Shown here: in pieces, positions 1,733-40,204 of the stretch
How positions within the stretch are numbered: the first letter of the stretch is position 1
Layout of the letters: every line of letters starts with the position of its first letter
Assembly: GCA_000999395.1 (NCBI GenBank)
Contig: LCOM01000001.1
Location: forward strand, 1 to 48,273
DNA: 48,273 nt
Direction: 5' to 3'
Origin: Parcubacteria group bacterium GW2011_GWA2_47_7
GTDB lineage: Bacteria > Patescibacteriota > Minisyncoccia > Phycocordibacterales > UBA6899
Notes under the pieces: model-generated
Told to the model about the DNA's origin: nothing
Databases searched by the model: none
What the model saw: only the letters and a program-made list of their open reading frames with translations
Made by a program: the position numbers and the translations under genes

Positions 1733-3900
1733 TCAATCCTGTTCCTCTTTTGCTCCTGATAGTAACGCTTTCAATTCAGCGATATTTATCGGTTTTACCA
1801 TATGACGGTCAAACCCGGACTCTATGGCCTTTTTTATATCATCTCTTTGTCCATATCCGGATACCGCAACTAATATTCGTTTGCACGCTCTCCCCTCTTC
1901 GCGTTTACGCAACTCACGCGCGACCGCGTATCCGTCCATATCGAACATGCCAATATCCAAAATAACAACTTCGGGGTCAAAGGCATCTGCTTCTGCTAAT
2001 GCGGATATTCCATCAAAACAGGTACGAACATCAAAACCGTGCATTTGGAGCAATTTACCCATGAGTTTTGCCAAATCCCTATTATCATCAACGACAAGTA
2101 TTTTCATCTTTCCGACAGTTGATTGCATTAATGGTTCAACCAAAGAGAGTTGCGCGGGCAGTTCAGCCGAAGATACCGGCAAGCGTATAATAAACTCGCT
2201 GCCCTTTTGCGGCCCATCGCTGTGCGCGTCGACAGTTCCACCGTGCAAATCACAAATAGCACGGACGAGCGTCAGGCCCATCCCAAGCCCGCCCTGAGAC
2301 AATTGTAATGCATCGTTCGTCTGATAGAATTGCTCAAAAATGTGGGAAAGATGTTCAGGTATAATCCCCATGCCATTATCCTAAACGCTCACCAACGCTT
2401 GATTCTTTTCTGTGGTCACCGTAACCCAGATATGCCCCCCGCTCGGAGTATATTTACACGCATTTGAGAGGAGGTTGGCAACCACCTGAATCAATCGAAG
2501 CCTATCACCGTTAATCACAACGGGTTTTTTCGGCGTTGATAAAGAAAACTGTATGTTTTTATTCGTGGCGCTCGCTTTCAATCCCGCAATCGCATCATCA
2601 ACCACTTCACAGAGATCTATGGTCGCTTTCTTGATTATCATTTTACCGGACTCAAATCGAGCAACATCGAGCAGGTCATCAAGGATATTCGACATGCTTT
2701 TAATATGCAAGAGTGCAATGCCTATAACCTCGGACATCTCTCCTTGGTCAGCGACTTGCTTATCGCTCGCGTCAGTCACACGAGTACGTTCGCGGATTAT
2801 TTGTATCGATGAATACAGAGCACCCAAGGGAAAAGAGAAAGAGTAAGGGTTTCTCCCCATTTCGTAGAAACTAATATCTCACGTGCAAACGATTCGCCTC
2901 CTTGCTCTCGCAACCGTCCATTCGGATCATATGGAGATTGAGACTTCTGTAAAATAACAGTGTTGACATCAAAATCAGATGAGGTCATCTCTTCCGCAGT
3001 ATACCCCAGAGCTACGTGCATGTGAGGATTTGTGTATACAAGGCGACCCTCCTTTTCACTGTAGAGAAAGATAATTTGCGGTACCTCATCCATGAGTAAG
3101 CGAAACTTTTCTTCGCTTTCGAGTAGTAGTGCTGTTTTTTTCTTTAGTTCGGTAATATCTGTAAAAACCACAACGCTTCCGTTAAACTCATTGTTTACAT
3201 CCATTATCGGTCGTGCTGAGATTAGTGTGTCAACATTTTTTCCGTTCTTGCGGCGCCAACCTGCTTCATATGATGTTGCGATTCCATGAATATGCTTCTG
3301 ATACTCCCGCTCTACAATCTTCATATTTTCCTCGTCAAACATAATGCTTCCATGTTTACCGATGAGTTCTGTGGGGAAATAACCCAATATTTCACCAGCC
3401 CTTGGGTTCACGTAAGTAATTATTCTATTGTTATCTTGTATAACCAACCCCTCGCTCATGCGATCTATGATATCGCGATATTTTATCTCGGTGTTCGCCA
3501 TGTCTCTTTCAATGCGCCTTCGTTCCGTAACATCTCTTACTACACAAAATGCCGCCTTCACATCATTGCCACAACCGACTGCCTTCACACTCATGATGGC
3601 GTTGCGTGAATCCCCTGACTTGGTTGTAATCGAAAATTCAAAATCCTCCACCTGTTTTCCCTCAACAACATATTCAAAATTCTTTAGTGTTTTCGATAGA
3701 TGCTCTTCCGACATCAATCTACGAAATTGAAAATCTGGAGATGTCAGTTCCTCGGTGCTATAGCCGGTGGTTAATGCACAGCGCTCATTTACGTATGCTA
3801 TTTTGTTTCTACAATAAATAAAAATCATGACGGGCAACAAATTTCCCATTTCACGATAATCAATATTGTCACAATGCTCCATTAAGTCCTTTGTTGTCAT
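1733..3900 (-). pseudogene. decayed hybrid sensor histidine kinase (PAS x3 - DHp - HATPase - REC), with one frameshift and one in-frame TAG
   Basis: Three consecutive ORFs: 2797..3900 (PAS repeats), 2381..2860 (DHp plus N-box 'NLLSNACKYTPSGG'), 1733..2371 (G-boxes plus receiver 'ILVVDDN...ILDIGMFDMDG...MVKP'). Frame change occurs near 2800-2860. TAG at 2381-2383 interrupts '..ALVSV*DNGMGI'. No H-box histidine ('YSFSFPLGALYSS' sits where SHELRxPL is expected). Confidence 0.7.
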
Positions 3901-4157: not shown

Positions 4158-6158
4158 TTACGATACTACGGGAGGAAGGAGTACGGTGACCGTGGTTTCC
4201 TTACCAATCTCACTGCTTGCACGGATTGTTCCGTTGTGTTTTTCTACTATTTTTTTACAGATAGACAATCCTATGCCAGAGCCCAGTACGCCTTTTCCTT
4301 CTCCGGTCTTCACTCGATAAAACCGGTCAAAAATTTTTATTAAATATTCTTTTTCAATACCGATACCATTATCCTTCACGATCAATTCAACAGTAGAACT
4401 ACTTTTTCGTAGGGTGATGTCTAAGAATTTATCCACACGAGAAGGAGATACATACTTGAATGCGTTGCTCACCAGGTTGGTGACGAGCTCACTCAGCTGG
4501 TCTCTGTTACCAAGAATATGAATGTCTCGTTCAATTGAACTGATAATGCGAACCCCCTGGGCCTCTGCCAAGATTTGAAAATATTCGACCAATTCGTCCA
4601 TCAATATGCTCAAATCGAACAATTCCATTTTCACGTGAGCATCCCGGGTTTCAAGCTTTGCAAGAATAAAGAGGTCGTAAATAAATTTAGAAACATTATC
4701 GATAGATCTTTCAAGTATACCCAGATGTGCTGACTCTAAATTCGTTGTCTTTAATAACTCAATCTCGTTCTTGATTATCGTCAGGGGCGTCTGCAGTCCG
4801 TGCGAAATATCGAGCATCATTTGTTGCTCCTCGTTACGAAGGCGAACGAGCTCTGTGGTCCTTTCTTGAACTCTTGCTTCGAGCTCTTCGGAGTATGACT
4901 TTACTTTTGTATAAAGCGCCGCTTTCTCTAATGCCACCGCAAGCTGATTCACAAAAGTTTTTAAGAGCTGAATATCCTCGACGGAGTATGGATCTTCAGA
5001 TCGTTTTTCTCCAAGAATTATAACTCCGAGCTGTTGCTGCTCCAGCACAATGGGCAATGTCACCTGATACTCATCGTCGGTACCCGTGTTTCCTCCGTAA
5101 GTTTTTGCTGAACTAATGCGATCCCCATCAAGGTGTAATGAAACCAATTTCGCCTTATACGTTGTCTCGAGTTTTTCTGTTACCTCGCTGACTATTTTGT
5201 CGACGTCCATAGTTCGATTGAGTATTTCGCTCAAATCCTGAAGAACGCGCGCATAGTCGTATTTGTCCTTAAAAAAATATGAATCGGTTATTTTTCTGAA
5301 ATATCTTTCTATAACTGGTACGCCAAATATACCAATGACCATAGTAATTCCTGCGCTCCATACTGTCGCATATCCAGTTGCTTTCTGAAAAAAGAAACCA
5401 AAGAGATAAACGAAGGTCAGAAAAATCGTAATTATCGATACGAGAAGCATCGAATAGATTGCACCACGCTGTATGATGAGACGAATATCCATGAGCTGGT
5501 GCTTCACAATCGCGTAACCAATAAGAGTAATCATGGGCAACGAGAAGAGCGGTCCGAGGTTGTTGTATTGGAATATCCCCAGTAGTGGCAAAATAAGTTG
5601 AGTAAGAAAAACGGGGATTAAGAATATCGTGACACCCAAAATTATATACTTCAATTGTTCTTTGTGGTGGAAGGCTTGCGAATCTCGATGCTTTAGGATT
5701 AGTTTAATGAAGGCAAGAAAAATAAATCCAAAATAGTATGTCAGATATGGAAGATAAGTAGCGGGAAGGAGGACTCCTGAAATATATGTGTGGTTCACTG
5801 AAACAACACTTTCTATCATCAGGTCAGTAAGTGGTATCACAAAGAAAAACAATCCAAGTGTCCATATAACTATTTTTTCGATAAAGATACTTCCATCCTT
5901 CCAAGGAAAAGTCATAGCAAACAAAAAAAGACCTAATGGCATGAAAGATCCCATAGCAAAAGCCAGCCTCCCCCAAAAGAGTGGCTGGCCAAATTCACCG
6001 ATAACCATTAGTAGCGAAAAATTCCACCCAGCTGTGCCAATCGCAAAAGTGCAAAAATAGCGATTGACCTCAGAGCGCGGATTCTTGCTCAGAACAAAAA
6101 AACCAAGAATACCTATAAGGCAAAAGGCGACGAATTGAATAGTGAGGATGAGATTCAT
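4158..6158 (-). CDS. multi-pass membrane sensor histidine kinase
   Basis: About 8 hydrophobic segments, a linker/GAF-like region, H-box 'DISHGLQTPLT', N-box 'NLVSNAFKY', 'DNGIGI', 'GSGIGLSICKKIV'. Start taken at ATG 6158 (MNLILTIQF), which overlaps the upstream stop as ATGA. Confidence 0.88.
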   Translation of the reverse strand: MNLILTIQFVAFCLIGILGFFVLSKNPRSEVNRYFCTFAIGTAGWNFSLLMVIGEFGQPLFWGRLAFAMGSFMPLGLFLFAMTFPWKDGSIFIEKIVIWTLGLFFFVIPLTDLMIESVVSVNHTYISGVLLPATYLPYLTYYFGFIFLAFIKLILKHRDSQAFHHKEQLKYIILGVTIFLIPVFLTQLILPLLGIFQYNNLGPLFSLPMITLIGYAIVKHQLMDIRLIIQRGAIYSMLLVSIITIFLTFVYLFGFFFQKATGYATVWSAGITMVIGIFGVPVIERYFRKITDSYFFKDKYDYARVLQDLSEILNRTMDVDKIVSEVTEKLETTYKAKLVSLHLDGDRISSAKTYGGNTGTDDEYQVTLPIVLEQQQLGVIILGEKRSEDPYSVEDIQLLKTFVNQLAVALEKAALYTKVKSYSEELEARVQERTTELVRLRNEEQQMMLDISHGLQTPLTIIKNEIELLKTTNLESAHLGILERSIDNVSKFIYDLFILAKLETRDAHVKMELFDLSILMDELVEYFQILAEAQGVRIISSIERDIHILGNRDQLSELVTNLVSNAFKYVSPSRVDKFLDITLRKSSSTVELIVKDNGIGIEKEYLIKIFDRFYRVKTGEGKGVLGSGIGLSICKKIVEKHNGTIRASSEIGKETTVTVLLPPVVS

Positions 6159-7435
6159 GGAGCTTTGTTTTGAGCTTCCTTGTGTAACGTAAAAGCCATC
6201 GGAACTACAACGACATTGTGATAAGCGGAGGGTTCCCCGATTGTCTCCCAACCCATTTGTAGCAGGATTAAACTCAATTTGTCAACTCGAGGCGCACCGA
6301 TACTGGTGATGAAACCATGCTCCCTTTGCCACAAGTAAGCCCCACGAAGAAGGACGGTGTAAATTCCTCTATCCCGATGTTCTTTTTTTATGATGCCTCG
6401 AGAGTGTTCTACCGTGCGCGAACGATCGATAGAATCCGGCAATACAAAACATTCTTCCATAAGGAATCCATGGGTGCTATCACGAATGAGGCGAAGTATG
6501 CCGATGATCTCATCTCCACATCGTACAATCACGTGAGTTGAGAATTCGTCATATTTATCCGATTCTTGTTTTTCGGGATATTGAGACGGATCTAGCGAAC
6601 CCATTTCTTCACAATATGCCGTATAACGCAAGCGATAGAGAGCAGCCATATCATTTGCACCTTGTGCGATCTCACACACCAGTGGGTTGTCGAATTTGTC
6701 GTTCGAAACGAGCATTTTGCTTGCGACGATAAAAACATCAGTACCACCATATGCGTGCTCGGTACGCAGAACTCGAAAATGAGCCTGCTTGAGCAATTCA
6801 GACAACTCTTTATTGTCAAGAAAGTGATAGAGCCGCTTGGCCCCAAGTCGTTTAATCCACAAAAAATTAATGAGGAATATCAAGAGAAATATCGGAGAAT
6901 ATAATATCCCCTTCATCATGATTGGCACACCCGCCCAACCCTTTTTGAGGTTCATCTTTATGTGCTCCACAAAGACATCTCGCACGCGAGCCTCTTTTGT
7001 GGGATTTGCAAGAACCAGTTTTCCTCCGAACTTTAACACTCTACTGAACTCTCCCAACACCTTGATGGGGTCTTCGGTCGCATAGAGAGCGTTGAGACAC
7101 ACGATGTTGTCGAATTGTGCATCCGGATATGGAAGAGGCTGATTGAGGTCCACTCTTGCACAATGAACATTTGTGTATGCACGTAATTTATTTATTGCTC
7201 GACGGAGCATGCTTGGCGAAGCGTCGATACATTCGACTGAAACGTTCTTGTTCTTGCACCGATCAAGATATTCTTTTGTGAAATTGCCAGTACCACACCC
7301 CGCATCAAGAACATGAGAAGTAGTATCATTCTCTTCTTGAAGCGCCACCCGTGCTCGTTGTAACAATTCCTGGTACGAGAGCAGATGGCAGAGCGCATCG
7401 TAAATTATCGCGTAAATAGCCCATATGATCTTCAC
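6155..7435 (-). CDS. fusion protein: class I SAM-dependent methyltransferase + GNAT-fold N-acyl amino acid synthase (FeeM / autoinducer-synthase-like) domain
   Basis: N-terminal half: 'VLDAGCGTGNFT', 'CIDASPSML', 'FDNIVCLNALY', 'LKFGGKLVLANP', plus a hydrophobic insert. C-terminal half: 'ALYRLRYTAYCEEMGSLDPSQYPEKQESDKYDEFSTHVIV..GDEIIGILRL', typical of the FeeM / exosortase-associated N-acyltransferase family. GTG start with AGAGGTG SD. Confidence 0.75.
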   Translation of the reverse strand: MKIIWAIYAIIYDALCHLLSYQELLQRARVALQEENDTTSHVLDAGCGTGNFTKEYLDRCKNKNVSVECIDASPSMLRRAINKLRAYTNVHCARVDLNQPLPYPDAQFDNIVCLNALYATEDPIKVLGEFSRVLKFGGKLVLANPTKEARVRDVFVEHIKMNLKKGWAGVPIMMKGILYSPIFLLIFLINFLWIKRLGAKRLYHFLDNKELSELLKQAHFRVLRTEHAYGGTDVFIVASKMLVSNDKFDNPLVCEIAQGANDMAALYRLRYTAYCEEMGSLDPSQYPEKQESDKYDEFSTHVIVRCGDEIIGILRLIRDSTHGFLMEECFVLPDSIDRSRTVEHSRGIIKKEHRDRGIYTVLLRGAYLWQREHGFITSIGAPRVDKLSLILLQMGWETIGEPSAYHNVVVVPMAFTLHKEAQNKAP

Positions 7436-7613
7436 TTGTCACCTCTTTCAAAGAACCAATAAGTCTCCATCATAGATAATAGATGATGAAGACTTCGCGA
7501 AGATGAAAAAGGAGTCTCCAAAAAATGAAGACCATATGAGATATTTATGAATAATATCTCGTCTTGATGTATGCTGGTTTAATCCGACAAATACCCTTGC
7601 TGGTATGGGGCAT

Positions 7614-8285
7614 CTACAGTAAATCAATCTTATAGCCCCTCCCAGGCACGGTGTGAATCAGCTTTTTCTTACCCGGTTGGTGGATTTTCCTCCGCACGCT
7701 CATGATATGAGATTCAATGGTATTGGAAAATGGATCGGCCTCCATATCCCAAACATGCTCTAGAATCATCCCGCGGGAAAGCACCAGGCCTTGGTTGCTT
7801 AATAGATATTCCAACAACATAAACTCCTTTCTCGTTAGATAAATTTCCTCATTCCCGCGACGTACGCTTGCTGTTTTTTCATTTAAAACCAAGTCGTCAA
7901 TGCTCAATGTTTCTCTTTGCATTTGTTTTGGTCTGCGTAGTAGCGCACGCATTCTAGCGACAAGCTCCTGTAACGAAAAAGGCTTTATCAAATAATCGTC
8001 AGCCCCTGCGTTTAACAACTCAACCTTAGTGGCAGCATCAGATTTAACAGACAACATAATGATAGGCATAGTTTTTTCCGCCGTTCTGATATCTTTACAT
8101 ATTTCGAGTCCGTGTTTTAAGGGCAAAACGTTATCGAGAATAACGAGATCGTAATTTTCCGTGCGCGCAAGGAAAGACCCTCTCTCTCCATCGGTCGCAA
8201 CGTCAACAGCAAAACACTCCGCCTGTAAGCTCATTTTGAGGAAATCTGCTATTTGGGGCTCATCTTCGACGAGGAGAACTCTCAT
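7614..8285 (-). CDS. OmpR-family response regulator (REC + winged-helix)
   Basis: 'MRVLLVEDEPQ', 'DLVILDNVLP', 'YLIKPF', C-terminal 'LTRKEFMLLEYL...VPGRGYK'. Confidence 0.92.
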   Translation of the reverse strand: MRVLLVEDEPQIADFLKMSLQAECFAVDVATDGERGSFLARTENYDLVILDNVLPLKHGLEICKDIRTAEKTMPIIMLSVKSDAATKVELLNAGADDYLIKPFSLQELVARMRALLRRPKQMQRETLSIDDLVLNEKTASVRRGNEEIYLTRKEFMLLEYLLSNQGLVLSRGMILEHVWDMEADPFSNTIESHIMSVRRKIHQPGKKKLIHTVPGRGYKIDLL

Positions 8286-8498
8286 TGAATTTGACTTATC
8301 ATAAATCCGTGGCTAAAGTCTCTTGTTCTTAATAAATATTTCATAATTTCTTTATGTTTCTACTATCTCAGCAGACTATAGTAAAGCGCAAAGAAGGTTC
8401 GATGGCAATACTACGATGTCGTGAGCAACTTTTTACATATGTCGATAGTGTGTATCTGAGACCCTTAATTGTGTGAATATCCCCAATTTGTTTGTATC

Positions 8499-8897
8499 AT
8501 GAAAATAATAAAATCAAAAAAAACGATTTTAGTTGTGGAGGACGAGGTTGCCCTTCAGGAGGCCATTAGCATACGCCTCACAGCCGCAGGCTACTTTGTG
8601 GTAAGTGCAATGTCGGCTGAATGGGCAATTGAATTGCTAAAAACAGTAAAACCAGACCTCGTATGGCTTGATCTTCTGCTTCCTGGAATGGGGGGACTTA
8701 TTTTTTTGGAGCGTATTCGCAAAAATGAATTGTTAAAAAACATACCGGTAATGATTGTTTCAGTGTCAGGTGGGCCAGAGAAGATGAAAGAAGCATTTCA
8801 ATTGAATGTCGTTGATTTTGTCGTCAAAAGCAATCATCGCCTGGAAGATATCATCAAAAAAGTAGATGTATATACGGCGATGAAGAATACCGCTTGA
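8499..8897 (+). CDS. single-domain CheY-like response regulator
   Basis: 'KTILVVEDE', 'DLVWLDLLLPGMGG', 'FVVKS'. Start set at ATG 8499 (MKIIKSKK). Confidence 0.85.
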   Translation: MKIIKSKKTILVVEDEVALQEAISIRLTAAGYFVVSAMSAEWAIELLKTVKPDLVWLDLLLPGMGGLIFLERIRKNELLKNIPVMIVSVSGGPEKMKEAFQLNVVDFVVKSNHRLEDIIKKVDVYTAMKNTA

Positions 8898-16452: not shown

Positions 16453-17295
16453 TTAATTTCGTTTAAATTTTGCCATTTCCTTTACCTCGCCAACAATTTC
16501 ATCGAGTGTATAATTTGCCTTGACCATAAATTTATCAGCTCCTGCCTTCAGTGCCTTTTCAATGTCTTCGCGCTGACCAAAATTAGAAAGCATCGAAATG
16601 TGTGTATTTGAAAGAGCGGGATTTGCACGTAGTCGGCGCAATACTTCAAAGCCGTCTATCCCCGGTAACAATATATCAAGCAACACTACGTCCGGAAGCT
16701 CCTTTTCGGCAAATAGAACCCCCTGCTCACCATCCACCGCCGCAATGACAGTAAATCCTTCTTTCGAAATTTTTTGCACAGCAAGATCCCTAAGGAATTT
16801 GTCATCCTCAATGATAAGGAGCTTGGTTTGCGACTTCACTGATGGTGTGGGTGATGGAACAACCTCAGCTACTGTCGGTGATGCTGTCTCAGCCTCGATT
16901 TGTGTCGCTGATCCAATATATTTTGAAACATATGACAAAATCTGAGTTGCATTAAAATTCGACTTTACAAAATAGGCCTGGACACCACACTTCAATGCGG
17001 AAGAAATTTCGATGGGGTTTCCACTTTCAGAAACAATAATAATGGGTATTTCCGCTACATGCTTTTCCGAATGCTCGCGAATCATTCTGATTAAATTCAA
17101 ATTTTTTTCAGACTCTTTCCCGATATCCAGAATGATCAAACCTGGGGTGCCATCTGAAAAGACTTCAACTAATGTTGCTGGATCATGCGCCAATATGGAG
17201 CGATAGTGCGATTCCTCAAGCAAGCCAGAGAGTTTTTGGATAAAATTTTGATCAACCGACATGATGACGATACTTTGCGCAAATTCTTCATTCAT
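16453..17295 (-). CDS. tandem-receiver response regulator (degenerate REC + canonical REC, no output domain)
   Basis: Second REC: 'KLLIIEDDKF', 'DVVLLDILLPGIDG', 'FMVKA'. First REC keeps 'LIILDI' but lacks the N-terminal acidic pair. The stop lies 1 nt from the gdhA ATG. Confidence 0.85.
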   Translation of the reverse strand: MNEEFAQSIVIMSVDQNFIQKLSGLLEESHYRSILAHDPATLVEVFSDGTPGLIILDIGKESEKNLNLIRMIREHSEKHVAEIPIIIVSESGNPIEISSALKCGVQAYFVKSNFNATQILSYVSKYIGSATQIEAETASPTVAEVVPSPTPSVKSQTKLLIIEDDKFLRDLAVQKISKEGFTVIAAVDGEQGVLFAEKELPDVVLLDILLPGIDGFEVLRRLRANPALSNTHISMLSNFGQREDIEKALKAGADKFMVKANYTLDEIVGEVKEMAKFKRN

Positions 17296-17327
17296 ACGAA
17301 TAGTAGTATATCATAGATATCCTATCG

Positions 17328-18758
17328 TCAGCTGAGTGGCAATGTGACGTGGAAAACTGAACCTGACCCTATTTTGCTCTCAAACCATAATTTTCCGCCA
17401 TGACGCTTGACAATGCTTTGTGTAATAAATAAACCTAGACCAGAACCATCAGATGCAAAACGCGAAGCGTTGGAAGCCCTAAAAAAACGACCAAATATCT
17501 TCTCCTGCTCGTCGGCAGGAATTCCTATACCATCATCTTTGACCCAAAAGTGTATTTCGTCATTTTCTTTTGTGGCGCCAACAGACACCGTACCTCCCGG
17601 ATTGGTATATTTGATTGCATTATCGATTAAATTTTGAAGGACATCACGCAACTTGTCGACATCAACTTTTATCTTTGGCAACAACTCCCTTGGCGACGAG
17701 AACTCGACACGTATGTTTTTCTTCGTTGCGAGAGTCAAAAGGCTTCTAATCATATCTTGGACGATATCCTCAAACTGCACAACGACGAAATCATATTTTA
17801 ATTTGCCGGATTCGAGCTTGTCCACCGCAAGCATGTCGTTAATGAGCGTTATCATACGCTCATTGGACGTAAAACTTTTTTTTAAAAGCTCCTCTTGTTG
17901 TGGGGTCAATTCGCCAGCGTCTTTGTCAAGAATTATTTTCAGAGACCATTTTATAGCTGAAAGCGGTGTGCGTAGCTGATGTGCGACGACTGATATTATT
18001 TCAGACTTCATCTTGTCTAGCTGAATAAGCTTGTCGTTTGCGCTCGTAAGTTCGAGGTCGCGACGAACCAACAACTTTGCGCTTTGATCAAATGCTTTGG
18101 TTAATTCTTCGAGTCGCACTACGTGTACTTCTTCGCTGGCAATTTGCTCATGCAAAAGAACGTCACGAGCTCTCATGAGTCGTGATATATATCCTCCAAA
18201 AAATCCCGTAAGTAAATACAGAATAAAAATAACCCCAGACTGAAGTAATGTGTTTGAAAAACGAGGAGAAATGATAAACGGATTAGCTCCCGATATCAGA
18301 TCAGTAAATATACCTAAATGAATAAATGCTGACACCAATACAGCCACACCCGACACAATTGCAACAATAATGGCACCTCGAAAACCAAATACAATCATCG
18401 AAACGACTATAGGTATAAAGAAAAACGAATGACCAACACTGCTCACCCCACCGCCAGTGAACATCATCACGGTGAAGAAAAAAAGTAGATCAAGTGCGAT
18501 CTGTAATATGTTTATCGTACCGACACTCTTGTCCGAGGGAAATTCTTTCTCTGTTTTTCTGATATATATAGAGAAAAAAATATTGCAAAGTAATACAAAA
18601 AAAAGTGAACCACCAAGGATGACCAACGACCTCATTTGATCCCCATCCTCTCGCGCAATGATGCCAAGAAAAAAAGCTAGGGGTGCATAGTACCAACGAG
18701 CATCAATAATCCAGCTCGTCGATTTCAATCGAGTCCCTCCGTGTAGTTCATTTTGCAT
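17328..18758 (-). CDS. membrane sensor histidine kinase
   Basis: Six or so TM segments, H-box 'VVAHQLRTPLSAI', 'NLIDNAIKYT', 'DDGIGIP', 'GSGLGLFITQSIV'. Confidence 0.9.
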   Translation of the reverse strand: MQNELHGGTRLKSTSWIIDARWYYAPLAFFLGIIAREDGDQMRSLVILGGSLFFVLLCNIFFSIYIRKTEKEFPSDKSVGTINILQIALDLLFFFTVMMFTGGGVSSVGHSFFFIPIVVSMIVFGFRGAIIVAIVSGVAVLVSAFIHLGIFTDLISGANPFIISPRFSNTLLQSGVIFILYLLTGFFGGYISRLMRARDVLLHEQIASEEVHVVRLEELTKAFDQSAKLLVRRDLELTSANDKLIQLDKMKSEIISVVAHQLRTPLSAIKWSLKIILDKDAGELTPQQEELLKKSFTSNERMITLINDMLAVDKLESGKLKYDFVVVQFEDIVQDMIRSLLTLATKKNIRVEFSSPRELLPKIKVDVDKLRDVLQNLIDNAIKYTNPGGTVSVGATKENDEIHFWVKDDGIGIPADEQEKIFGRFFRASNASRFASDGSGLGLFITQSIVKRHGGKLWFESKIGSGSVFHVTLPLS

Positions 18759-18789
18759 AAGACTTACTTCATTTTACGCGAAAAATACA

Positions 18790-19968
18790 CTATTCCGCAA
18801 TAGCCCATAACAATAAAGAACCATTATGTATCTGTACACGCTCTCCAGACTGACCTCCGACTTGAGCATATGAATAGTACCCGGCGATGGGAACATCGCG
18901 TCCGATGATACGCTGTATGATTTCTATTTCCTCATCAGCGCGTAATCCGAACATTTTTTTCCTTGCCGCAGAATTAACAACAATAATTGCTTTGGGTGTT
19001 CTTCCTTGAAGCTTTTTCAATACTTCCCTTGCTGCACGCTCTGCAGTCTCTAACCCTCTATCGATATCAGAGATCATGAGGCGAATCTCAGATTTTTCAG
19101 GAATACCAGAGGCAAATGTCATGGCTCCTTTTTGATCAACAAAAATAGGATTTCGCAAAACAACATCATTATTATCATCAGTAAATACTCCGAGAGGATA
19201 AGCCACTGCAAGCGCCGGAAGTAATCCATCATGCAGTTCGTGCACATGGTCTTCTCCAAAATATTCTTCGTATATTGAAGACGCTGGCTTTCCGTCTAAT
19301 TCAAATAGTGTGGTGCCCTCTGATCGCGTCGCAACGCGCGATATTCCTATTGGCAAAAAACCATGCATTGCGACAGACGCTGTGTGATAATCCCCAGAGA
19401 GACCCATGCCGACGATAGAACCGCGATACACTTTATTCTGTAAATACTGATATGTTTCGAAAAATAACATCTCATCACCAGATGCACCTCCAGTGACGGG
19501 AAAAGTATCTCCTAATTTATTCGTCATGCCACGAATCGTCTCATCGCCAGAGCCAGAAAGTACGTCAAGAAACGTGAGGCAAGAAGAAATATATCCGTTT
19601 GAATTATACGTAAGCGTATTTGCGCACTCTTCACCTGCGAGACGCGCGTTCCAAAGAATGTGATTTCCGATCGCTCCCCAAAAACGTGCCTGATCGGAGC
19701 AAATAGCCATGACCACGACGGTGTTGTATGTAGAAAATCCCTCACTGGAAATCTCGCCTGCAGTGGAACATCCAATGAGTATGGCATTCGGTGCGACGCT
19801 TGTGACGCCGGCCACCAATGCATCTTGGTCAAAGGTCGTCGACCCAAACACAATGAGCGCATCAGCATCTTTTCCTTTCGGCAACCCAGAAATAGCCTGA
19901 GTACACGCCTCAGCACCAGCAGTATGTGAATCCTTTCCTTTTCCGACACCAATACTTGCGGCAATCAT
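18790..19968 (-). CDS. FIST-domain signalling protein (FIST_N + FIST_C)
   Basis: 392 aa. Layout and motifs ('ALIVFGSTTFDQ', 'LIGCSTAGEIS', 'GFYSYAQ'-like 'AGYYSYAQVG') are typical of FIST proteins. Confidence 0.75.
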   Translation of the reverse strand: MIAASIGVGKGKDSHTAGAEACTQAISGLPKGKDADALIVFGSTTFDQDALVAGVTSVAPNAILIGCSTAGEISSEGFSTYNTVVVMAICSDQARFWGAIGNHILWNARLAGEECANTLTYNSNGYISSCLTFLDVLSGSGDETIRGMTNKLGDTFPVTGGASGDEMLFFETYQYLQNKVYRGSIVGMGLSGDYHTASVAMHGFLPIGISRVATRSEGTTLFELDGKPASSIYEEYFGEDHVHELHDGLLPALAVAYPLGVFTDDNNDVVLRNPIFVDQKGAMTFASGIPEKSEIRLMISDIDRGLETAERAAREVLKKLQGRTPKAIIVVNSAARKKMFGLRADEEIEIIQRIIGRDVPIAGYYSYAQVGGQSGERVQIHNGSLLLWAIAE

Positions 19969-36240: not shown

Positions 36241-36324
36241 GCGTAGGTGGCAGAGCGGTCAAATGCAATAGACTGTAAATCTATCGTCCTATGGGCTACG
36301 CAGGTTCGAATCCTGCCCTACGCA
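36241..36324 (+). tRNA. tRNA-Tyr (anticodon GUA), class II with long variable arm, no encoded CCA
   Basis: GCGTAGG-TG-GCA..TGC-A-ATAGA-CTGTAAA-TCTAT-variable CGTCCTATGGGCTAC-GCAGGTTCGAATCCTGC-CCTACGC-A. Confidence 0.9.
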
Positions 36325-37989
36325 CAATGTAGGACAAACCGAGTTGAAAAGCTCGGTTTTGTCTTTCTCTGCCTCGTAATATCTAGGTTCGAACGCTGGA
36401 TAGGTTGCCTTAGCTTCGGCAAGTGCGTCAATAAGCTTCTGAAAAGGTTCCGCGTTGATAACGTTGAGTTTTTCTTCATCCCAGATTAGGTTCGATTGCA
36501 AGCGAGACAATACCGCTCTCTTTGCCTTTGTCTCACCCCTTCGTATTACTTCAGCAGCAGCCAAGGTGAGGTCGGCCATATCATTTGCCTGTGCCAACCA
36601 ATCCACTGCAACAGGAGCTTGGGATATGCTTTTTAGTTCCTGCTCTATTTCCTGAACATCCTTTTGATACTCATCAGGAGTAACAAGATTTTCAGCCAAC
36701 ATTTCACGGTAGCGTTTCTTCTTGCTTTCAAGGTTTGCCTTTCGCATATTTTGAGAACGCACCGCTTCAAGGTTTTGCTGTAGCTCCTTGTCACTCAGCT
36801 CGTGCAAATACTTCTTGCTCCACTCAACCAACCCAGGAGAAAGCTGTAAGTTTTTTTCAATATAGGTGGCGAGAAATTCATCAACCCTCTTTTCTTCAAT
36901 ATGCCTAGTTCTTTGTTTGGCCTTATGACGAGGAATATTGTAGTAGTAAGTGTAATTAAGATATTTGGGATTCTGAATTTTACCGAGAGCTTTTCCACAC
37001 TTGGGGCAAGCATCCTTGTTCAGATATGCAAATTTCTGTTTACACTCACAGATAAGCTGAAAATGTAAACTCTGCCCAATAAACTCTTTGTAGGGCGAAA
37101 CCATGTAACCAGAATACGTGGCAGTAAAATGCTCAGAGCGTGGTACATTTTTCCCCGACATCATTCTTAAAATCTTGAGATGTTCTTCCTCAGTAATGAT
37201 GCGTGGCATTGAAGGATGAAGCTCGTACCGCTTGCCACCCAAAAAGAAGAAGCCCGCATAGATGGGGTTCGCCAAAAGGTTGTATATCGCTGAACGGGCA
37301 ATAAGTTTGCCGCCCTGTCGCCTCCGCATGGGCGTAGTGAGCTTTAATTCTTCACGGGCAAAATAAGCGATTTGCGAGGCAGATATATTGCCATTCAGAT
37401 AGCGATAAAAAAGTTGCTGAACAAGCGGCCAACGCTCTGCATCAACCCTCCATTTTTTTGCACCCCTGTCCCCATCTTTCTCATTGAGGAAGCCTGTGAA
37501 CGCAACGCCATGTGGCCACCCCATCTGCGCTTTTGCTTCATGTCCACGCCTCACGCCTCGTTTTAAATCCACAACAAATTGACTTGGTGCGCCAAAGAGT
37601 ACGCCCAGAACAATTGCATTGTCGCCACTGTGATGTTCACCTGTCGAAGTGACGATGTGCCTTAGCTGCCCCTGTTGTAACAACCACTGCAGCAATCCAC
37701 CATCCATCGGATTACGCGAAAGACGGTCAAGTGCCCAACAAATTATTCCCTGTACCTCTCCGGTGGCAATGCGCCCCATCATTTCATTAAATTTCTCTCG
37801 TCCAGGGACACTCGCGCTTTTTGACTCTACTAGAACATCTACAACATTTAAGCCAAGCCTCTCTGCTCGCTCCAAGTTTTCTTTTCGCTGAGAGTCGAGT
37901 GAAAGAATTTGTCGGTTATCTTCCTCTGTGGATTTGCGACAGTAAACAACGTATTTTATTTTTTGGGCGACGACGGCTTTTGTTTTCAT
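36289..37989 (-). CDS. large serine recombinase (integrase)
   Basis: 'YVVYCRKSTEEDNRQILSLDSQ' catalytic Ser motif, recombinase domain, zinc ribbon 'CECKQKF..CPKCGK', coiled-coil region. The last 12 codons (..VGQDSNLRSP) are the reverse complement of the tRNA-Tyr T-arm. Start set at ATG 37989. Confidence 0.9.
   Translation of the reverse strand: MKTKAVVAQKIKYVVYCRKSTEEDNRQILSLDSQRKENLERAERLGLNVVDVLVESKSASVPGREKFNEMMGRIATGEVQGIICWALDRLSRNPMDGGLLQWLLQQGQLRHIVTSTGEHHSGDNAIVLGVLFGAPSQFVVDLKRGVRRGHEAKAQMGWPHGVAFTGFLNEKDGDRGAKKWRVDAERWPLVQQLFYRYLNGNISASQIAYFAREELKLTTPMRRRQGGKLIARSAIYNLLANPIYAGFFFLGGKRYELHPSMPRIITEEEHLKILRMMSGKNVPRSEHFTATYSGYMVSPYKEFIGQSLHFQLICECKQKFAYLNKDACPKCGKALGKIQNPKYLNYTYYYNIPRHKAKQRTRHIEEKRVDEFLATYIEKNLQLSPGLVEWSKKYLHELSDKELQQNLEAVRSQNMRKANLESKKKRYREMLAENLVTPDEYQKDVQEIEQELKSISQAPVAVDWLAQANDMADLTLAAAEVIRRGETKAKRAVLSRLQSNLIWDEEKLNVINAEPFQKLIDALAEAKATYPAFEPRYYEAEKDKTELFNSVCPTLCVGQDSNLRSP
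36333..36368 (+). terminator. tRNA-Tyr terminator, located inside the 3' end of the recombinase ORF on the other strand
   Basis: AACCGAG-TTGAAAAG-CTCGGTT, with flanking GACA/TGTC extension and a T-rich tail. Confidence 0.6.
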
Positions 37990-38500
37990 AAATTTATAAG
38001 CAAGAATGGGGCAACAACATTTACTCAATCGCCAGACCAAGTAGTTGCTACCCCATTGTTACTTATAAGTGAATTCACTTCTATCACTTGGTCTGGCATT
38101 TTTTATCCTACTCTCTTTGGGGGTACATTAAAAGTGTTTTCACTTTTTTGATAGGAATATCCCCCAAGCCTCTTTAAAAGAAACTTTGTGCAGATGATAT
38201 TTTGTCCGTTGTTTCTCGGTATCGTCTCAACTTTTCGCGGAGGCTTCCATGGCTATGAACATTGCTCTTGCGGAGTTGTTCAATCTGCGCCACCCCAGCC
38301 AACCGTAATCACTGCATCCCAAAAGTTATTTCGCACAAAACTAATGCAGTAGACGGGATACTTCTCCGATGAGGTTTCTCCCCCAGCTCACATTTAAATT
38401 CGGCATCCAAGAGGGGGCTGTGAGCTTCGCCTACCGTCCTCTCAGTATGGAGTTATTCCTAACCCTCATTTGGTCATGAATATTCACTAGCAAATTAAGG

Positions 38501-39018: not shown

Positions 39019-39068
39019 GACTTAATTTTATCAACAGAGTGATGTGCTTCCGTGACAGAATTATTTAC

Positions 39069-40158: not shown

Positions 40159-40179
40159 TATACGTATTACGGTATTACG
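40159..40179 (+). promoter_or_regulatory. candidate operator: palindrome ATACGTAT overlapping tandem direct repeat GTATTACG-GTATTACG
   Basis: Read directly at 40159-40166 and 40164-40179, in the divergent intergenic region of the island. Confidence 0.25.
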
Positions 40180-40204
40180 TTGTGTGCGCAGCATGGCAAA
40201 AAGT

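What the first reader, a model, noticed from the sequence alone, without database searches (positions are those of the whole stretch)
4158..8285. Methyltransferase / N-acyl-amino-acid-synthase fusion inserted between a response regulator and its histidine kinase (autoinducer-like circuit?)
Seen in sequence:
- One 426-aa ORF (6155..7435) joins a class I SAM methyltransferase ('VLDAGCGTGNFT', 'FDNIVCLNALY') to a C-terminal domain, through a hydrophobic insert.
- The C-terminal domain has 'ALYRLRYTAYCEEMGSLDPSQYPEKQESDKYDEFSTHVIV..IIGILRL'. This is the hallmark of the FeeM / LuxI-fold N-acyl amino acid synthase family (exosortase-associated acyltransferase type).
- Its TGA overlaps the ATG of a multi-pass membrane histidine kinase (ATGA at 6155-6158).
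- An OmpR-type regulator lies 178 nt upstream on the same strand.

Established knowledge: this GNAT subfamily makes N-acyl amino acids or AHL-like lipids.

Inference: the locus could synthesise a methylated N-acyl amino acid (for example a methyl ester) that is sensed by the coupled kinase. That would be a self-contained signalling circuit. The fusion and its embedding in a two-component operon are unusual.
Basis: partly seen in the sequence, partly recalled or inferred. Interest (0 to 1): 0.7.

Follow-up and report, generated by a model that had tools for sequence, protein, structure and literature searches.

The report
Methyltransferase–acyltransferase fusion coupled to membrane kinase
A candidate-phyla (Parcubacteria) bacterium carries a gene that fuses a methyltransferase to a LuxI/FeeM-like acyltransferase and overlaps a many-pass membrane sensor kinase gene; the same trio recurs in several phyla, so it is probably a lipid-like signal maker paired with its receptor, although no product has been shown.

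Summary
On the minus strand lie an OmpR-type regulator (7614-8285), a 178-nt gap, a 426-aa methyltransferase–GNAT fusion (6155-7435) and a 666-aa histidine kinase (4158-6158). The kinase ATG overlaps the fusion's TGA.

The C-terminal domain belongs to the LuxI/FeeM/OlsB/exosortase-acyltransferase branch of N-acyltransferases. It passes Pfam FeeM and Acetyltransf_5, but fails Autoind_synth and TIGR03694. As a profile it is closest to CoA-dependent AHL synthases.

The fusion is not a chimera. At least 41 clusters (50% identity) of full-length fusions exist, and other phyla encode the two halves as adjacent genes.

The conserved unit is methyltransferase, then acyl enzyme, then HisKA_7TM kinase; 29 of 36 loci with this methyltransferase subfamily have the kinase. 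The acyl enzyme is swapped between lineages (GNAT, ketoacyl synthase, T_hemolysin-like protein, PaaK/LuxE-like protein) and the regulator varies.

Best reading (about 0.45): a synthase–receptor pair for a methylated N-acyl amino compound, working like Ralstonia PhcB–PhcS. A lipid-homeostasis circuit is the main rival.

A 2020 survey already noted LuxI homologues next to kinases in CPR genomes, but not the methyltransferase. I rate this a new variant of a known kind.

The parts
7614..8285 (-). OmpR/PhoB-type response regulator (receiver plus winged-helix DNA-binding domain), 223 aa
   Evidence: Pfam Response_reg 2.6e-27 and Trans_reg_C 8.7e-25. The same regulator type lies upstream of the fusion in L004, L005, L006 and L172.
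7436..7613 (-). 178-nt intergenic region. It holds a terminator-like hairpin (7533-7513), an AT-rich palindrome GAGATATTATTCATAAATATCTC (7560-7538), and a Shine-Dalgarno AGAGGTG (7446-7440) 4 nt before the GTG start.
   Evidence: Sequence read; terminator-like site. L004 and L005 have a clear intrinsic terminator at the same place. The fusion and kinase genes are therefore probably a separate transcription unit.
6155..7435 (-). Methyltransferase-GNAT fusion gene (426 aa; KKU79859.1)
   Evidence: AlphaFold model: pLDDT 89.3, pTM 0.89.
6701..7435 (-). Class I SAM methyltransferase module (aa 1-245). Subfamily invariants: W5, Y8, Y12, D13, Y21, motif I DAGCGTGN, D71, N115, R132.
   Evidence: Pfam. 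PDB profile and Foldseek matches are to class I methyltransferases only. The invariants are shared across 36 loci with all partner types.
6839..6985 (-). Three-helix hydrophobic insert (cap) of the methyltransferase, aa 151-199, containing the conserved N190. Probably a lipid-substrate lid or a membrane-association element.
   Evidence: Helices 151-164, 166-178 and 180-199, pLDDT 71-88. Hydropathy 2.18 for aa 176-194. N190 is kept in 31 of 36 relatives.
6185..6688 (-). LuxI/FeeM-fold GNAT N-acyltransferase domain (aa 250-417). Conserved residues: R270, E277, D293, D296, R315, E343, S345, R346.
   Evidence: Pfam Acetyltransf_5 and FeeM above their cut-offs. Profile against PDB: BjaI 1.3e-18, TofI, RpaI, EsaI, LasI, and FeeM 2.5e-3. 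Domain model pLDDT 93.4; TM 0.73-0.75 to BjaI, LasI, RpaI, TofI and FeeM.
6155..6158 (-). ATGA stop/start overlap between the fusion gene and the kinase gene (implies translational coupling)
4158..6158 (-). Sensor histidine kinase (666 aa; KKU79858.1)
5289..6158 (-). Polytopic membrane sensor region (aa 1-290, about 9 hydrophobic segments with short loops), of the HisKA_7TM type
   Evidence: Hydropathy. 19 of 23 aligned relatives match PF16927, best E 8.6e-18. The window copy itself gives no direct match, but it is 51-61% identical to PF16927-positive homologues.
4926..5261 (-). GAF-like domain (aa about 300-411)
   Evidence: GAF_3 6.4e-7, a partial match at aa 334-411.
4170..4826 (-). Kinase core: HisKA (aa 445-504, H-box DISHGLQTP) and HATPase_c (aa 550-663)
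   Evidence: Pfam HisKA 9.7e-7 and HATPase_c 1.2e-25.

Best explanation
The locus is a synthase-receptor cassette for a small, methylated, lipid-like molecule.

Proposed mechanism (every step is inferred; none is shown):
1. The GNAT domain transfers a fatty or other acyl chain from acyl-CoA or acyl-ACP to the alpha-amino group of an amino-acid-type acceptor. This is the chemistry shared by LuxI, FeeM, OlsB and the exosortase-associated acyltransferases.
2. The fused SAM methyltransferase, whose hydrophobic helical cap would hold the lipid, methylates that product. The most likely result is a neutral methyl ester on the free carboxylate, which would diffuse through membranes. C- or N-methylation cannot be excluded.
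3. The product partitions into the membrane and is read by the polytopic HisKA_7TM sensor region of the kinase. The kinase gene is translationally coupled to the synthase gene.
4. The kinase then sets the phosphorylation state of the OmpR-type regulator encoded upstream.

Functionally this is the logic of Ralstonia PhcB (methyltransferase) with PhcS (kinase) and PhcR, and of LuxM-LuxN and CqsA-CqsS. Here it is built from a methyltransferase plus a LuxI/FeeM-like acyltransferase.
For: Anatomy, shown directly:
- ATGA overlap of synthase and kinase genes, and a co-oriented regulator.
- Intact SAM motif I and an intact methyltransferase fold.
- A GNAT domain with the LuxI-family residues R270, D293, D296, R315, E343, S345 and R346. 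Its best solved relatives are the AHL synthases and FeeM.

Rosetta-stone evidence:
- At least 41 clusters of fused proteins exist.
- Coriobacteriia, Eubacteriales, Margulisiibacteriota and other MAGs encode the same two proteins as adjacent separate genes.

Conserved linkage:
- A HisKA_7TM kinase lies directly downstream in 29 of 36 loci that carry this methyltransferase subfamily.
- The regulator type and position vary.

Modularity:
- Between the methyltransferase and the kinase, lineages carry one of several enzymes: a FeeM-like GNAT, a beta-ketoacyl synthase, a T_hemolysin-family protein, a PaaK/LuxE-like 513-517-aa protein, or nothing.
- All the identifiable ones handle acyl groups. This fits a family of related small acyl products rather than a housekeeping function.

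View from the kinase side:
- Of 61 genes immediately upstream of HisKA_7TM-type kinases, 13 are class I methyltransferases and 11 are ketoacyl synthases. A further 3 are FeeM-type GNATs, 2 are class I/II aminotransferases and 3 are radical SAM enzymes. CqsA belongs to that aminotransferase family (from my own knowledge).

Precedents:
- The phcBSR operon makes and senses methyl 3-hydroxymyristate through a methyltransferase and a kinase (PMC11960443, PMC8578825).
- N-acyl alanine methyl esters are known natural products whose synthase genes are unknown (PMC11580390).
- LuxI homologues next to sensory kinases in CPR genomes were already proposed as complete QS candidates (PMC7567580).
Against: - There is no biochemical or genetic evidence of any kind. 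Product, acyl donor, amine acceptor and site of methylation are all unknown.
- CPR bacteria generally lack fatty-acid synthesis (my own knowledge), and none of the window ORFs that I scanned is an acyl-carrier or lipid gene. The acyl donor is therefore unclear.
- The LuxI Trp34 equivalent is absent in the window clade (GS instead of GW), so SAM may not be the acyl acceptor.
- The kinase also has a cytoplasmic GAF-like domain that could be the real input.
- Only 10 of 66 sampled HisKA_7TM kinases have this methyltransferase upstream, so the sensor family is not dedicated to it.
- In some ketoacyl-synthase/kinase loci a B12-radical-SAM enzyme stands where the class I methyltransferase would be. 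That hints at C-methylation rather than ester formation.
- A membrane kinase placed next to a lipid-modifying enzyme is also the layout of homeostasis circuits such as Des-DesK-DesR.
- Homology of this methyltransferase to PhcB, and of the kinase to PhcS, could not be tested.
Confidence: 0.45

Rival explanations
1. Membrane-lipid remodelling under homeostatic control. The fusion would make a methylated aminolipid that stays in the cell's own membrane, comparable to an OlsB-type lyso-ornithine or glycine lipid followed by OlsG-type methylation. The polytopic kinase would sense the physical or chemical state of the membrane and adjust expression through the regulator, as DesK/DesR do for the Des desaturase.
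For: - The GNAT domain also matches the OlsB ornithine N-acyltransferase models (window 2.8e-7; 7 of 13 relatives) and Acetyltransf_5. By my own knowledge, not checked here, Acetyltransf_5 is the Pfam family of OlsB.
- The methyltransferase resembles lipid-head-group methyltransferases as well as it resembles anything else (PmtA 8ys9: E 3.3e-15, TM 0.76).
- It carries a hydrophobic helix suited to membrane association.
- The kinase has short loops and no large extracytoplasmic domain, which is typical of intramembrane sensing.
Against: - All OlsB model scores are far below their cut-offs (30 against 320 bits). At about 170 aa the domain is LuxI/FeeM-sized.
- No second (O-)acyltransferase of the OlsA type lies in the cassette in any locus examined.
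- Swapping the GNAT for a ketoacyl synthase or a PaaK/LuxE-like enzyme while keeping the methyltransferase and the kinase is hard to reconcile with one defined membrane lipid.
- Tight stop/start coupling of enzyme and sensor genes is the usual layout of synthase-receptor pairs.
Confidence: 0.25
2. A specialised-metabolite cassette. The fusion would make a bioactive N-acyl amino acid derivative (antibiotic, surfactant or host-directed effector), like the long-chain N-acyl amino acids from environmental-DNA clones and the Fee pathway. The two-component system would only regulate production or provide self-protection, without sensing the product itself.
For: - The FeeM Pfam model is passed.
- CPR bacteria are episymbionts (my own knowledge), for which host-directed lipids would make sense.
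Against: - Regulation alone does not explain why one particular sensor-domain family (HisKA_7TM) stays linked to the methyltransferase across phyla while the regulator changes.
- No transporter or immunity gene is part of the conserved unit.
Confidence: 0.15
3. Protein-modification module. The GNAT would acylate or acetylate, and the methyltransferase would methylate, the kinase or the regulator itself, giving a CheR-like adaptation of signalling.
For: Physical coupling of the genes. GNATs and class I methyltransferases do include protein-modifying enzymes, and small protein or unknown-substrate GNATs score similarly by Foldseek E-value (3efa, SACOL1063).
Against: - Sequence-level placement is in the LuxI/FeeM/OlsB/TIGR03694 branch. 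By my own knowledge, not tested here, the characterised members of that branch are small-molecule N-acyltransferases.
- In related cassettes the GNAT is replaced by ketoacyl synthases and adenylate-forming-like enzymes, which do not modify proteins.
Confidence: 0.04

Closest known systems
Ralstonia solanacearum PhcB-PhcS-PhcR(Q) quorum sensing (phcBSR operon)
   Same: A SAM-dependent methyltransferase gene lies directly upstream of, and in an operon with, a membrane sensor histidine kinase and response regulator(s). The methyltransferase makes a fatty-acid methyl ester (3-OH MAME or 3-OH PAME) that the kinase senses (PMC11960443, PMC8578825, PMC6989110). Loci L028, L031 and L033 have no gene between the methyltransferase and the kinase, and in L028 a receiver-only regulator follows the kinase, matching that order.
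   Different: Here the methyltransferase is fused to, or followed by, a LuxI/FeeM-like N-acyltransferase, so the substrate is probably an N-acyl amino compound rather than a 3-hydroxy fatty acid. The sensor is of the HisKA_7TM type with a GAF domain. Sequence homology to PhcB or PhcS could not be tested. The organisms are CPR, Gram-positive and anaerobic lineages, not Burkholderiales.
LuxI-type AHL synthases, especially the CoA-dependent BjaI, RpaI and MesI
   Same: Best solved-structure relatives by profile (BjaI 1.3e-18; TofI, RpaI, EsaI and LasI from 5.6e-14 to 1.4e-10) and by fold (TM 0.74-0.75). The conserved Arg, Asp, Asp, Arg and Glu-x-Ser-Arg positions are kept.
   Different: The window domain scores below the Pfam Autoind_synth cut-off (18.6-20.6 against 24). 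It lacks the Trp34 equivalent. It is fused to a methyltransferase. It is paired with a histidine kinase rather than a LuxR-type receptor.
FeeM / N-acyl amino acid synthases (PF21926) and PEP-CTERM/exosortase-associated acyltransferase (TIGR03694)
   Same: Passes the Pfam FeeM cut-off (37-40 bits against 27). TIGR03694 is the top NCBIfam model. Fold TM to FeeM 2g0b is 0.73-0.74.
   Different: The FeeM sequence itself matches the family profile only weakly (2.5e-3, C-terminal part only). The TIGR03694 score is about half the cut-off and covers half the model. No exosortase context was seen.
LuxM-LuxN, AinS-AinR, CqsA-CqsS, RpfF-RpfC (synthase gene next to a polytopic-membrane sensor kinase)
   Same: The gene for a lipid-signal synthase is adjacent to a kinase whose input is a multi-helix membrane domain. 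That these are synthase-kinase pairs is from my own knowledge. Two of 23 sensor regions weakly hit the LuxN model (2.1e-5) and two hit PrsK. A published survey found a CqsS-sensor HMM hit (6.2e-13) in a CPR kinase next to a LuxI homologue (PMC7567580 Table S4).
   Different: Different synthase chemistry. The similarity of the sensor regions is weak and could be compositional.
N-acyl alanine/glycine methyl esters (NAMEs) of Roseovarius tolerans
   Same: This is the kind of molecule a FeeM-like acyltransferase plus a carboxyl methyltransferase would make. Their synthase genes have not been found (PMC11580390).
   Different: No link between this gene family and Roseovarius was tested. NAMEs are reported not to act in AHL signalling.
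Bernard et al. 2020 survey of QS genes in CPR/DPANN (PMC7567580)
   Same: It reports 18 CPR LuxI homologues adjacent to a sensory kinase as candidate complete QS systems.
   Different: The paper never mentions a methyltransferase (0 occurrences in the main text). KKU79859/KKU79858 are not in the held supplement text (some files were cut when stored). There is no analysis of the fusion, of split forms in other phyla, or of the exchange of partner enzymes.

Membership tests
Class I SAM-dependent methyltransferase (Methyltransf_11/25/31) | Pfam models passed above the gathering score | tested here: met
   65-69 bits against cut-offs of 21-30, at aa 40-164.
Class I SAM-dependent methyltransferase (Methyltransf_11/25/31) | Rossmann-like fold with glycine-rich motif I and an acidic residue after strand 2 | tested here: met
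   DAGCGTGN and D71 are invariant or nearly invariant in the 14 fusion proteins and in 35-36 of the 36 methyltransferases compared. The AlphaFold model has pLDDT 89. Foldseek matches class I methyltransferases (Coq5, RebM, PmtA and others) at E about 1e-11 to 1e-12.
Class I SAM-dependent methyltransferase (Methyltransf_11/25/31) | Methyl transfer to a defined acceptor (O, N or C) | not testable with these tools
   Nearest solved relatives include O-, N- and C-methyltransferases alike.
LuxI-type AHL synthase (PF00765) | Pfam gathering score | tested here: not met
   18.6 bits for the whole protein and 20.6 bits for the domain alone, against a cut-off of 24. 10 of 13 relatives match at E<=0.01.
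LuxI-type AHL synthase (PF00765) | Conserved residues (LuxI-family numbering from my own knowledge: R24, F28, W34, D45, D48, R70, E101, S103, R104) | tested here: inconclusive
   R270, Y274, D293, D296, R315, E343, S345 and R346 are present and largely invariant. The Trp position reads Gly-Ser in the window clade, but Gly-Trp (or another residue followed by Trp) in split homologues L009, L013, L020, L025 and L056.
LuxI-type AHL synthase (PF00765) | AHL-synthase fold | tested here: met
   TM (query-normalised) 0.74-0.75 and rmsd 2.6-3.4 to BjaI, RpaI, LasI and TofI. Generic small GNATs reach similar E-values, so this is not discriminating.
LuxI-type AHL synthase (PF00765) | Uses SAM as acyl acceptor and releases an acyl-homoserine lactone | not testable with these tools
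   Needs biochemistry.
FeeM / N-acyl amino acid synthase (PF21926) | Pfam gathering score | tested here: met
   37.1 and 39.9 bits against 27. 13 of 13 relatives match.
FeeM / N-acyl amino acid synthase (PF21926) | Similarity to FeeM itself (2g0b) | tested here: inconclusive
   Profile E 2.5e-3, covering only profile positions 49-164. Fold TM 0.73-0.74.
FeeM / N-acyl amino acid synthase (PF21926) | Formation of a long-chain N-acyl amino acid | not testable with these tools
   Needs expression and LC-MS.
PEP-CTERM/exosortase-associated acyltransferase (TIGR03694) | NCBIfam cut-off and full-length match | tested here: not met
   56.5 and 59.3 bits against 111.95. Only model positions 13-126 of 241 are matched.
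PEP-CTERM/exosortase-associated acyltransferase (TIGR03694) | Genomic association with exosortase / PEP-CTERM genes | tested here: not met
   None among the window ORFs scanned or in the related loci. Only part of the genome could be seen.
OlsB ornithine-lipid N-acyltransferase | NCBIfam equivalog cut-off | tested here: not met
   30.3 against 320 bits and 25.4 against 350 bits.
PhcB-PhcS-PhcR type quorum sensing | Methyltransferase gene directly upstream of, and co-transcribed with, a membrane sensor kinase, with a response regulator in the cluster | tested here: met
   Window. 29 of 36 related loci.
PhcB-PhcS-PhcR type quorum sensing | Sequence homology to PhcB and PhcS | not tested
   No PhcB or PhcS sequence was reachable with the tools. 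tblastn against plasmids gave only generic methyltransferase-core hits.
PhcB-PhcS-PhcR type quorum sensing | Diffusible methyl-ester signal sensed by the kinase | not testable with these tools
   Needs chemistry and reporter assays.
HisKA_7TM sensor histidine kinase (PF16927) | Match to the PF16927 N-terminal membrane domain | tested here: met
   The window copy gives no direct match even at E<=1. Its N-terminal 330 aa align at E 1e-75 to 1e-128 (44-61% identity) with L004-L006. Of these, L006 is PF16927-positive on record. 19 of 23 aligned relatives match PF16927, best E 8.6e-18.
HisKA_7TM sensor histidine kinase (PF16927) | Functional kinase core (H-box, HATPase_c) | tested here: met
   HisKA 9.7e-7, HATPase_c 1.2e-25, H-box DISHGLQTP.
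OmpR/PhoB response regulator | Receiver domain plus Trans_reg_C | tested here: met
   2.6e-27 and 8.7e-25.

The most novel reading that the evidence does not exclude
The window would hold one member of a widespread, unrecognised class of lipid-type autoinducer systems in CPR bacteria and in Gram-positive and anaerobic lineages (Bacillota, Coriobacteriia, Margulisiibacteriota, Dehalococcoidia, Desulfovibrionaceae). In this class a dedicated SAM methyltransferase would work with an interchangeable acyl-processing enzyme: a LuxI/FeeM-like GNAT, a ketoacyl synthase, a T_hemolysin-like protein or an adenylate-forming-like enzyme. Together they would make methylated acyl signals, and HisKA_7TM kinases would be the receptors.

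If true, this would give HisKA_7TM its first ligand class. It would show AHL-like or N-acyl-amino-acid-ester signalling in ultra-small symbionts that cannot make their own fatty acids. It would also supply the missing enzyme type for N-acyl amino acid methyl ester (NAME) biosynthesis.
Probability: 0.35. Interest if true: 0.85.

Novelty: new variant of a known kind. Interest (0 to 1): 0.62.

Why it matters
Acyl-based quorum sensing is regarded as largely a Proteobacterial trait, and HisKA_7TM is a common sensor domain with no known ligand. A methyltransferase, acyl enzyme and HisKA_7TM kinase cassette conserved across phyla, with a natural gene fusion tying the two enzymes together, gives a concrete and cheap test. 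Express one 1.3-kb gene and look for a methylated N-acyl compound. Then ask whether the neighbouring kinase responds to it.

A positive result would do three things. It would define a new signal chemistry and its receptor family. It would show how genome-reduced CPR episymbionts might signal to each other or to their hosts. It would also suggest where to look for the unknown NAME synthases.

A negative result (a bulk membrane lipid) would still identify a new aminolipid pathway and its homeostatic sensor.

Tried and rejected
- **Whole-protein Foldseek against PDB.** It returned only generic class I methyltransferases. The AprA MT2-GNAT didomain (6d6y) matched through the methyltransferase alone, so it says nothing about the fusion. 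I therefore modelled the GNAT domain separately.
- **Regulator-binding motif search.** I compared the regulator-fusion intergenic regions of the window with L004-L006, L027, L032 and L039. Only AT-rich k-mers were shared. L004 and L005 share a terminator, but no operator could be defined.
- **tblastn of the methyltransferase module against PLSDB plasmids.** There were 566 records, none covering 80% or more of the query. All were core-motif hits, and none had a PhcB-like annotated context.
- **PDB sequence search with the kinase membrane-domain profile.** No hits.
- **hhalign of the T_hemolysin-like partner (L032) against the GNAT profile.** Probability 23%, E 9e-4, aligned over the equivalent core strands. 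This is inconclusive, so I do not claim the partner is a GNAT.
- **Assembly chimera.** Rejected, because the fusion recurs at 30-50% identity on independent contigs.
- **'Inserted into a two-component operon'.** Rejected, because the regulator, not the enzyme, is the variable element.
- **Phage or mobile-element origin of the cassette.** Considered and rejected. Composition is unremarkable at 4-8 kb and the neighbours are chromosomal genes.

Full report
**1. What is in the sequence**

All the genes of the finding lie on the minus strand.
- An OmpR/PhoB-type response regulator occupies 7614-8285. Pfam gives Response_reg 2.6e-27 and Trans_reg_C 8.7e-25.
- After a 178-nt gap, a 426-aa ORF runs from a GTG at 7435 to a TGA at 6157-6155. 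The GTG is preceded by AGAGGTG with a 4-nt spacer.
- That TGA overlaps the ATG (6158-6156) of a 666-aa histidine kinase ending at 4158.
- The exact protein is GenBank KKU79859.1, 'Methyltransferase type 11', from Parcubacteria group bacterium GW2011_GWA2_47_7. The kinase is KKU79858.1.
- The rest of the window is ordinary CPR chromosome: uvrA, uvrB, uvrC, ddl, tgt, thyA, folA, glycogen-related enzymes and tRNAs. None of the window ORFs that I scanned is a fatty-acid or acyl-carrier gene.

**2. The fusion protein**

Methyltransferase half:
- Residues 40-164 match class I SAM methyltransferase models at E about 1e-18 to 1e-19.
- An AlphaFold model built on 14 homologues is confident (pLDDT 89.3, pTM 0.89).
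- The 'hydrophobic insert' is not a linker. It is the last of three helices (151-164, 166-178, 180-199) inserted into the methyltransferase fold. After it, the methyltransferase sheet resumes (strands 220-245) before the GNAT begins at about residue 250.
- The segment 176-194 is as hydrophobic as a membrane helix. It carries an Asn (N190) kept in 31 of 36 relatives. I read it as a lipid-binding lid or a membrane-association element (inference).
- Foldseek and PDB profile searches place the methyltransferase among small-molecule and lipid methyltransferases of all kinds. Examples are Coq5 and UbiE, RebM, the phosphatidylethanolamine N-methyltransferase 8ys9, juvenile-hormone-acid O-methyltransferase and PKS C-methyltransferases. 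The methyl acceptor atom therefore cannot be inferred.

GNAT half:
- Residues 266-410 pass Pfam Acetyltransf_5 (52-54 bits against 22.4) and FeeM (37-40 bits against 27). They fail Autoind_synth (18.6-20.6 bits against 24).
- In NCBIfam the best model is the exosortase-associated acyltransferase TIGR03694. The score is half the cut-off and covers half the model. Next come OlsB and TraI-type AHL synthases, also far below their cut-offs.
- A profile of 13 family members finds AHL synthases first among solved structures. BjaI scores 1.3e-18, TofI 5.6e-14, MesI (6wns) 1.3e-12, RpaI 1.7e-12, EsaI 6e-11 and LasI 1.4e-10. FeeM reaches only 2.5e-3, and only over the C-terminal part.
- A separate model of the domain (pLDDT 93.4) superposes on BjaI, RpaI, LasI, TofI and FeeM with TM 0.73-0.75. 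Small generic GNATs reach similar E-values.
- The residues invariant in the fusion family are R270, E277, D293, D296, R315, S345, R346 and R354, with E343 nearly invariant. They align with the Arg, Asp-x-x-Asp, Arg and Glu-x-Ser-Arg positions conserved in LuxI-type enzymes (alignment; the LuxI numbering is from my own knowledge).
- The conserved Trp of the AHL synthases is Gly-Ser in the window clade. It is present in more distant split homologues.

Conclusion: a LuxI/FeeM/OlsB-branch N-acyltransferase that is not a member of any one named family. All the characterised members I know of acylate the alpha-amino group of an amino-acid-type acceptor.

**3. The fusion is real, and elsewhere it is split**

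- The word-indexed search found 13 further full-length fusions at 30-50% identity. It also found a larger set of 235-310-aa proteins that match only residues 1 to about 240, insert included.
- The exhaustive HMMER scan of 1.84 billion representatives gave 635 hits at E<=1e-30. Among the best 150 there were at least 41 full-length fusions, many methyltransferase-only proteins and several 170-190-aa GNAT-only proteins.
- In the window clade the two halves share one ORF. The two are separate adjacent genes in L009 and in MAGs labelled Eubacteriales (L013, L020), Coriobacteriia (L025), Margulisiibacteriota (L030) and Nitrospiraceae (L056). The same holds in several unclassified MAGs.
- A fusion in one lineage of two genes that are neighbours in others is classical evidence that the two enzymes act together.

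**4. The kinase is the constant neighbour; the regulator is not**

- In all seven fused loci that were not retrieved through the kinase and that have downstream sequence, the next gene is a homologue of the window kinase. These loci are the window, L001, L004, L005, L006, L008 and L172.
- The same holds in 7 of 8 informative split loci. L056 is the exception.
- The kinase's N-terminal 330 aa have about nine hydrophobic segments joined by short loops.
- The window copy does not itself reach the Pfam HisKA_7TM model. Homologues 44-61% identical to it align at E 1e-75 to 1e-128. Of these, L006 is HisKA_7TM-positive on record, and 19 of 23 aligned relatives match the model.
- No ligand for HisKA_7TM appears in the two papers that mention it.
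- Two of 23 sensor regions weakly hit the LuxN model and two hit the PrsK model. I treat this as a lead only.
- The regulator is OmpR-type and upstream in the window, L004-L006, L027, L032, L039 and L172. It is receiver-only and downstream in L001, L009 and L028.
- L004 and L005 have an obvious intrinsic terminator between the regulator and the fusion gene. The window has a weaker hairpin at 7533-7513. The synthase and kinase genes therefore probably form their own transcription unit.

**5. A wider pattern that changes the picture**

View from the methyltransferase side:
- A scan of one genome per species retrieved many loci with the same methyltransferase subfamily. All share the N-terminal W, Y, YD and Y motifs, the hydrophobic insert and N190.
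- 29 of 36 such loci have the HisKA_7TM-type kinase downstream.
- The gene between the methyltransferase and the kinase differs by lineage:
  - the FeeM-like GNAT;
  - a FabF-like beta-ketoacyl synthase, in nine loci from Bacillota, Dethiobacter, Syntrophomonadaceae, Desulfovibrionaceae and Armatimonadota MAGs;
  - a T_hemolysin-family protein, in three Patescibacteria/Saccharibacteria loci;
  - a 513-517-aa protein with no Pfam match, in L022, and upstream of the methyltransferase in L028. By eye it resembles PaaK/LuxE-type adenylate-forming enzymes; I did not test this;
  - nothing at all, in L031 and L033 (and in L028, where the 517-aa protein lies upstream instead).
- L172 carries an additional stand-alone methyltransferase in front of the fusion.

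View from the kinase side:
- Only 10 of 66 informative HisKA_7TM-like kinases sampled from metagenomes have this methyltransferase upstream.
- Of 61 genes immediately upstream of such kinases, 13 are class I methyltransferases and 11 are ketoacyl synthases. A further 3 are FeeM-type GNATs, 2 are class I/II aminotransferases and 3 are radical SAM enzymes. CqsA belongs to that aminotransferase fold family (my own knowledge).
- Ketoacyl-synthase loci that lack the class I methyltransferase have a B12-binding radical SAM enzyme or an acyl-CoA-ligase-type enzyme in front of the synthase.
- So this sensor family is repeatedly paired with enzymes of fatty-acyl chemistry and methylation.

**6. Most likely mechanism**

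I favour a synthase-receptor pair. The GNAT would N-acylate an amino-acid-type acceptor. The fused methyltransferase would methylate the product, most simply to a neutral methyl ester. The hydrophobic product would then be read in the membrane by the HisKA_7TM domain of the translationally coupled kinase, which controls the regulator.

Every one of these steps is inferred. What is shown is the anatomy, the family placement, the fusion/split relationship and the conserved gene linkage.

The closest working analogue is the Ralstonia phcBSR operon. There a methyltransferase makes methyl 3-hydroxymyristate or methyl 3-hydroxypalmitate, and the next gene's kinase senses it (PMC11960443, PMC8578825, PMC6989110). 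LuxM-LuxN and CqsA-CqsS share the same gene logic. N-acyl alanine methyl esters are known bacterial products whose synthase has never been found (PMC11580390), so the proposed chemistry has precedent.

The argument for a methyl ester has three parts.
- The methyltransferase is the constant component.
- No exporter belongs to the cassette.
- Esterification is what would turn an anionic amphiphile into a diffusible molecule.

The counter-argument is that B12-radical-SAM enzymes sometimes occupy the methyltransferase's place. By my own knowledge these are typically carbon methylases.

**7. Rivals**

- (a) A membrane-lipid remodelling enzyme under a Des/DesK-like homeostatic sensor. In favour are the OlsB-model hits, the PmtA-like fold match and the intramembrane-type sensor. 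Against are the LuxI-like size of the domain, the absence of a second acyltransferase, and the exchange of partner enzymes.
- (b) A bioactive N-acyl amino acid that is merely regulated by the two-component system.
- (c) Protein modification of the signalling proteins. This is unlikely given the family placement and the partner exchange.
- A cytoplasmic GAF-like domain in the kinase means that the input need not be the membrane region.

**8. Novelty**

- Bernard et al. 2020 (PMC7567580) already listed 18 CPR LuxI homologues next to sensory kinases as candidate complete QS systems. They even recorded a CqsS-sensor HMM hit in one such kinase.
- They do not mention a methyltransferase. This protein is not in the held part of their tables.
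- JGI auto-annotation labels two homologues 'UbiE/N-acyl-L-homoserine lactone synthetase'.
- I found no paper describing the fusion, its split forms outside CPR, the methyltransferase-kinase core or the exchange of acyl enzymes.
- I therefore class it as a new variant of a known kind (autoinducer synthase plus sensor kinase). It is of good but not exceptional interest until a product is shown.

Noticed in passing
window 1733-3900 (-): Three consecutive, partly overlapping ORFs together read as one hybrid histidine kinase broken by at least two frame disruptions. They are 2797-3900 (two PAS domains), 2381-2860 (HisKA plus the start of HATPase_c) and 1733-2371 (the rest of HATPase_c plus a receiver). 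This is either a pseudogene or assembly errors. It lies directly downstream of the kinase of the finding but is absent from the homologous loci.
   Followed up: partly
window 8469-8897 (+): A receiver-only response regulator (142 aa, TTG start) is divergently transcribed from the OmpR-type regulator, across a 183-nt intergenic region. Related loci L001, L009 and L028 have a receiver-only regulator downstream of the kinase, so it might belong to the same circuit.
   Followed up: no
window 7538-7560 (-): An AT-rich palindrome, GAGATATTATTCATAAATATCTC, sits between the regulator and the fusion gene. It is followed by two copies of GTCTTCAT...TGGAGACT. This is a possible operator or terminator, and it is not conserved in L004-L006.
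   Followed up: partly
window 16453-19968 (-): A second signalling cluster: a FIST-domain protein (18790-19968), a histidine kinase (17328-18758) and a double-receiver protein (16453-17295).
   Followed up: no
window 36241-46000: A serine recombinase (36289-38040, -) overlaps the end of tRNA-Tyr (36241-36325, +). It is followed by a lower-GC stretch (about 0.39-0.42 at 40-45 kb, with reversed GC skew) that contains a HEPN/Toprim-N protein (43371-44630). It looks like an integrated mobile or defence island.
   Followed up: no
L011, L014-L019, L021 (ketoacyl synthase between methyltransferase and kinase): These FabF-like ketoacyl synthases read KSMIGNPLAA. By my own knowledge, FabF has KSMTGHLLGA at this position with the second catalytic His. 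If so, they would have a Cys-His-Asn rather than a Cys-His-His triad on a FabF-type scaffold.
   Followed up: no
L112, L134, L154 (metagenome loci): The order is B12-binding radical SAM enzyme, then ketoacyl synthase, then HisKA_7TM kinase. A radical SAM enzyme appears to take the place of the class I methyltransferase. L131 has an AMP-binding ligase there, L116 has a class I/II aminotransferase directly upstream of the kinase, and L164 has an aldehyde dehydrogenase/LuxC-like enzyme.
   Followed up: partly
L171/L172 7231-8004: In a 904-kb JGI contig the cassette carries an extra stand-alone 257-aa methyltransferase immediately upstream of, and overlapping, the fusion gene. This suggests that two methylations occur in some lineages.
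   Followed up: no
L028 (labelled uncultured Gammaproteobacteria): The gene content is a PaaK/LuxE-like protein, the methyltransferase, the kinase, a receiver, and a TraG/VirD4-like ATPase. That content, and by eye the AT-rich coding, look CPR-like rather than gammaproteobacterial, so the bin may be mislabelled. L045, labelled Neisseria, also carries the cassette and is likewise suspect.
   Followed up: no
L005 2274-2638: The region upstream of the regulator contains two sequences with tRNA T-arm signatures (GGGGATTCGAACCCC and GAGGAATCGAACTCC) on the opposite strand. These are probably tRNA genes flanking the cassette.
   Followed up: no
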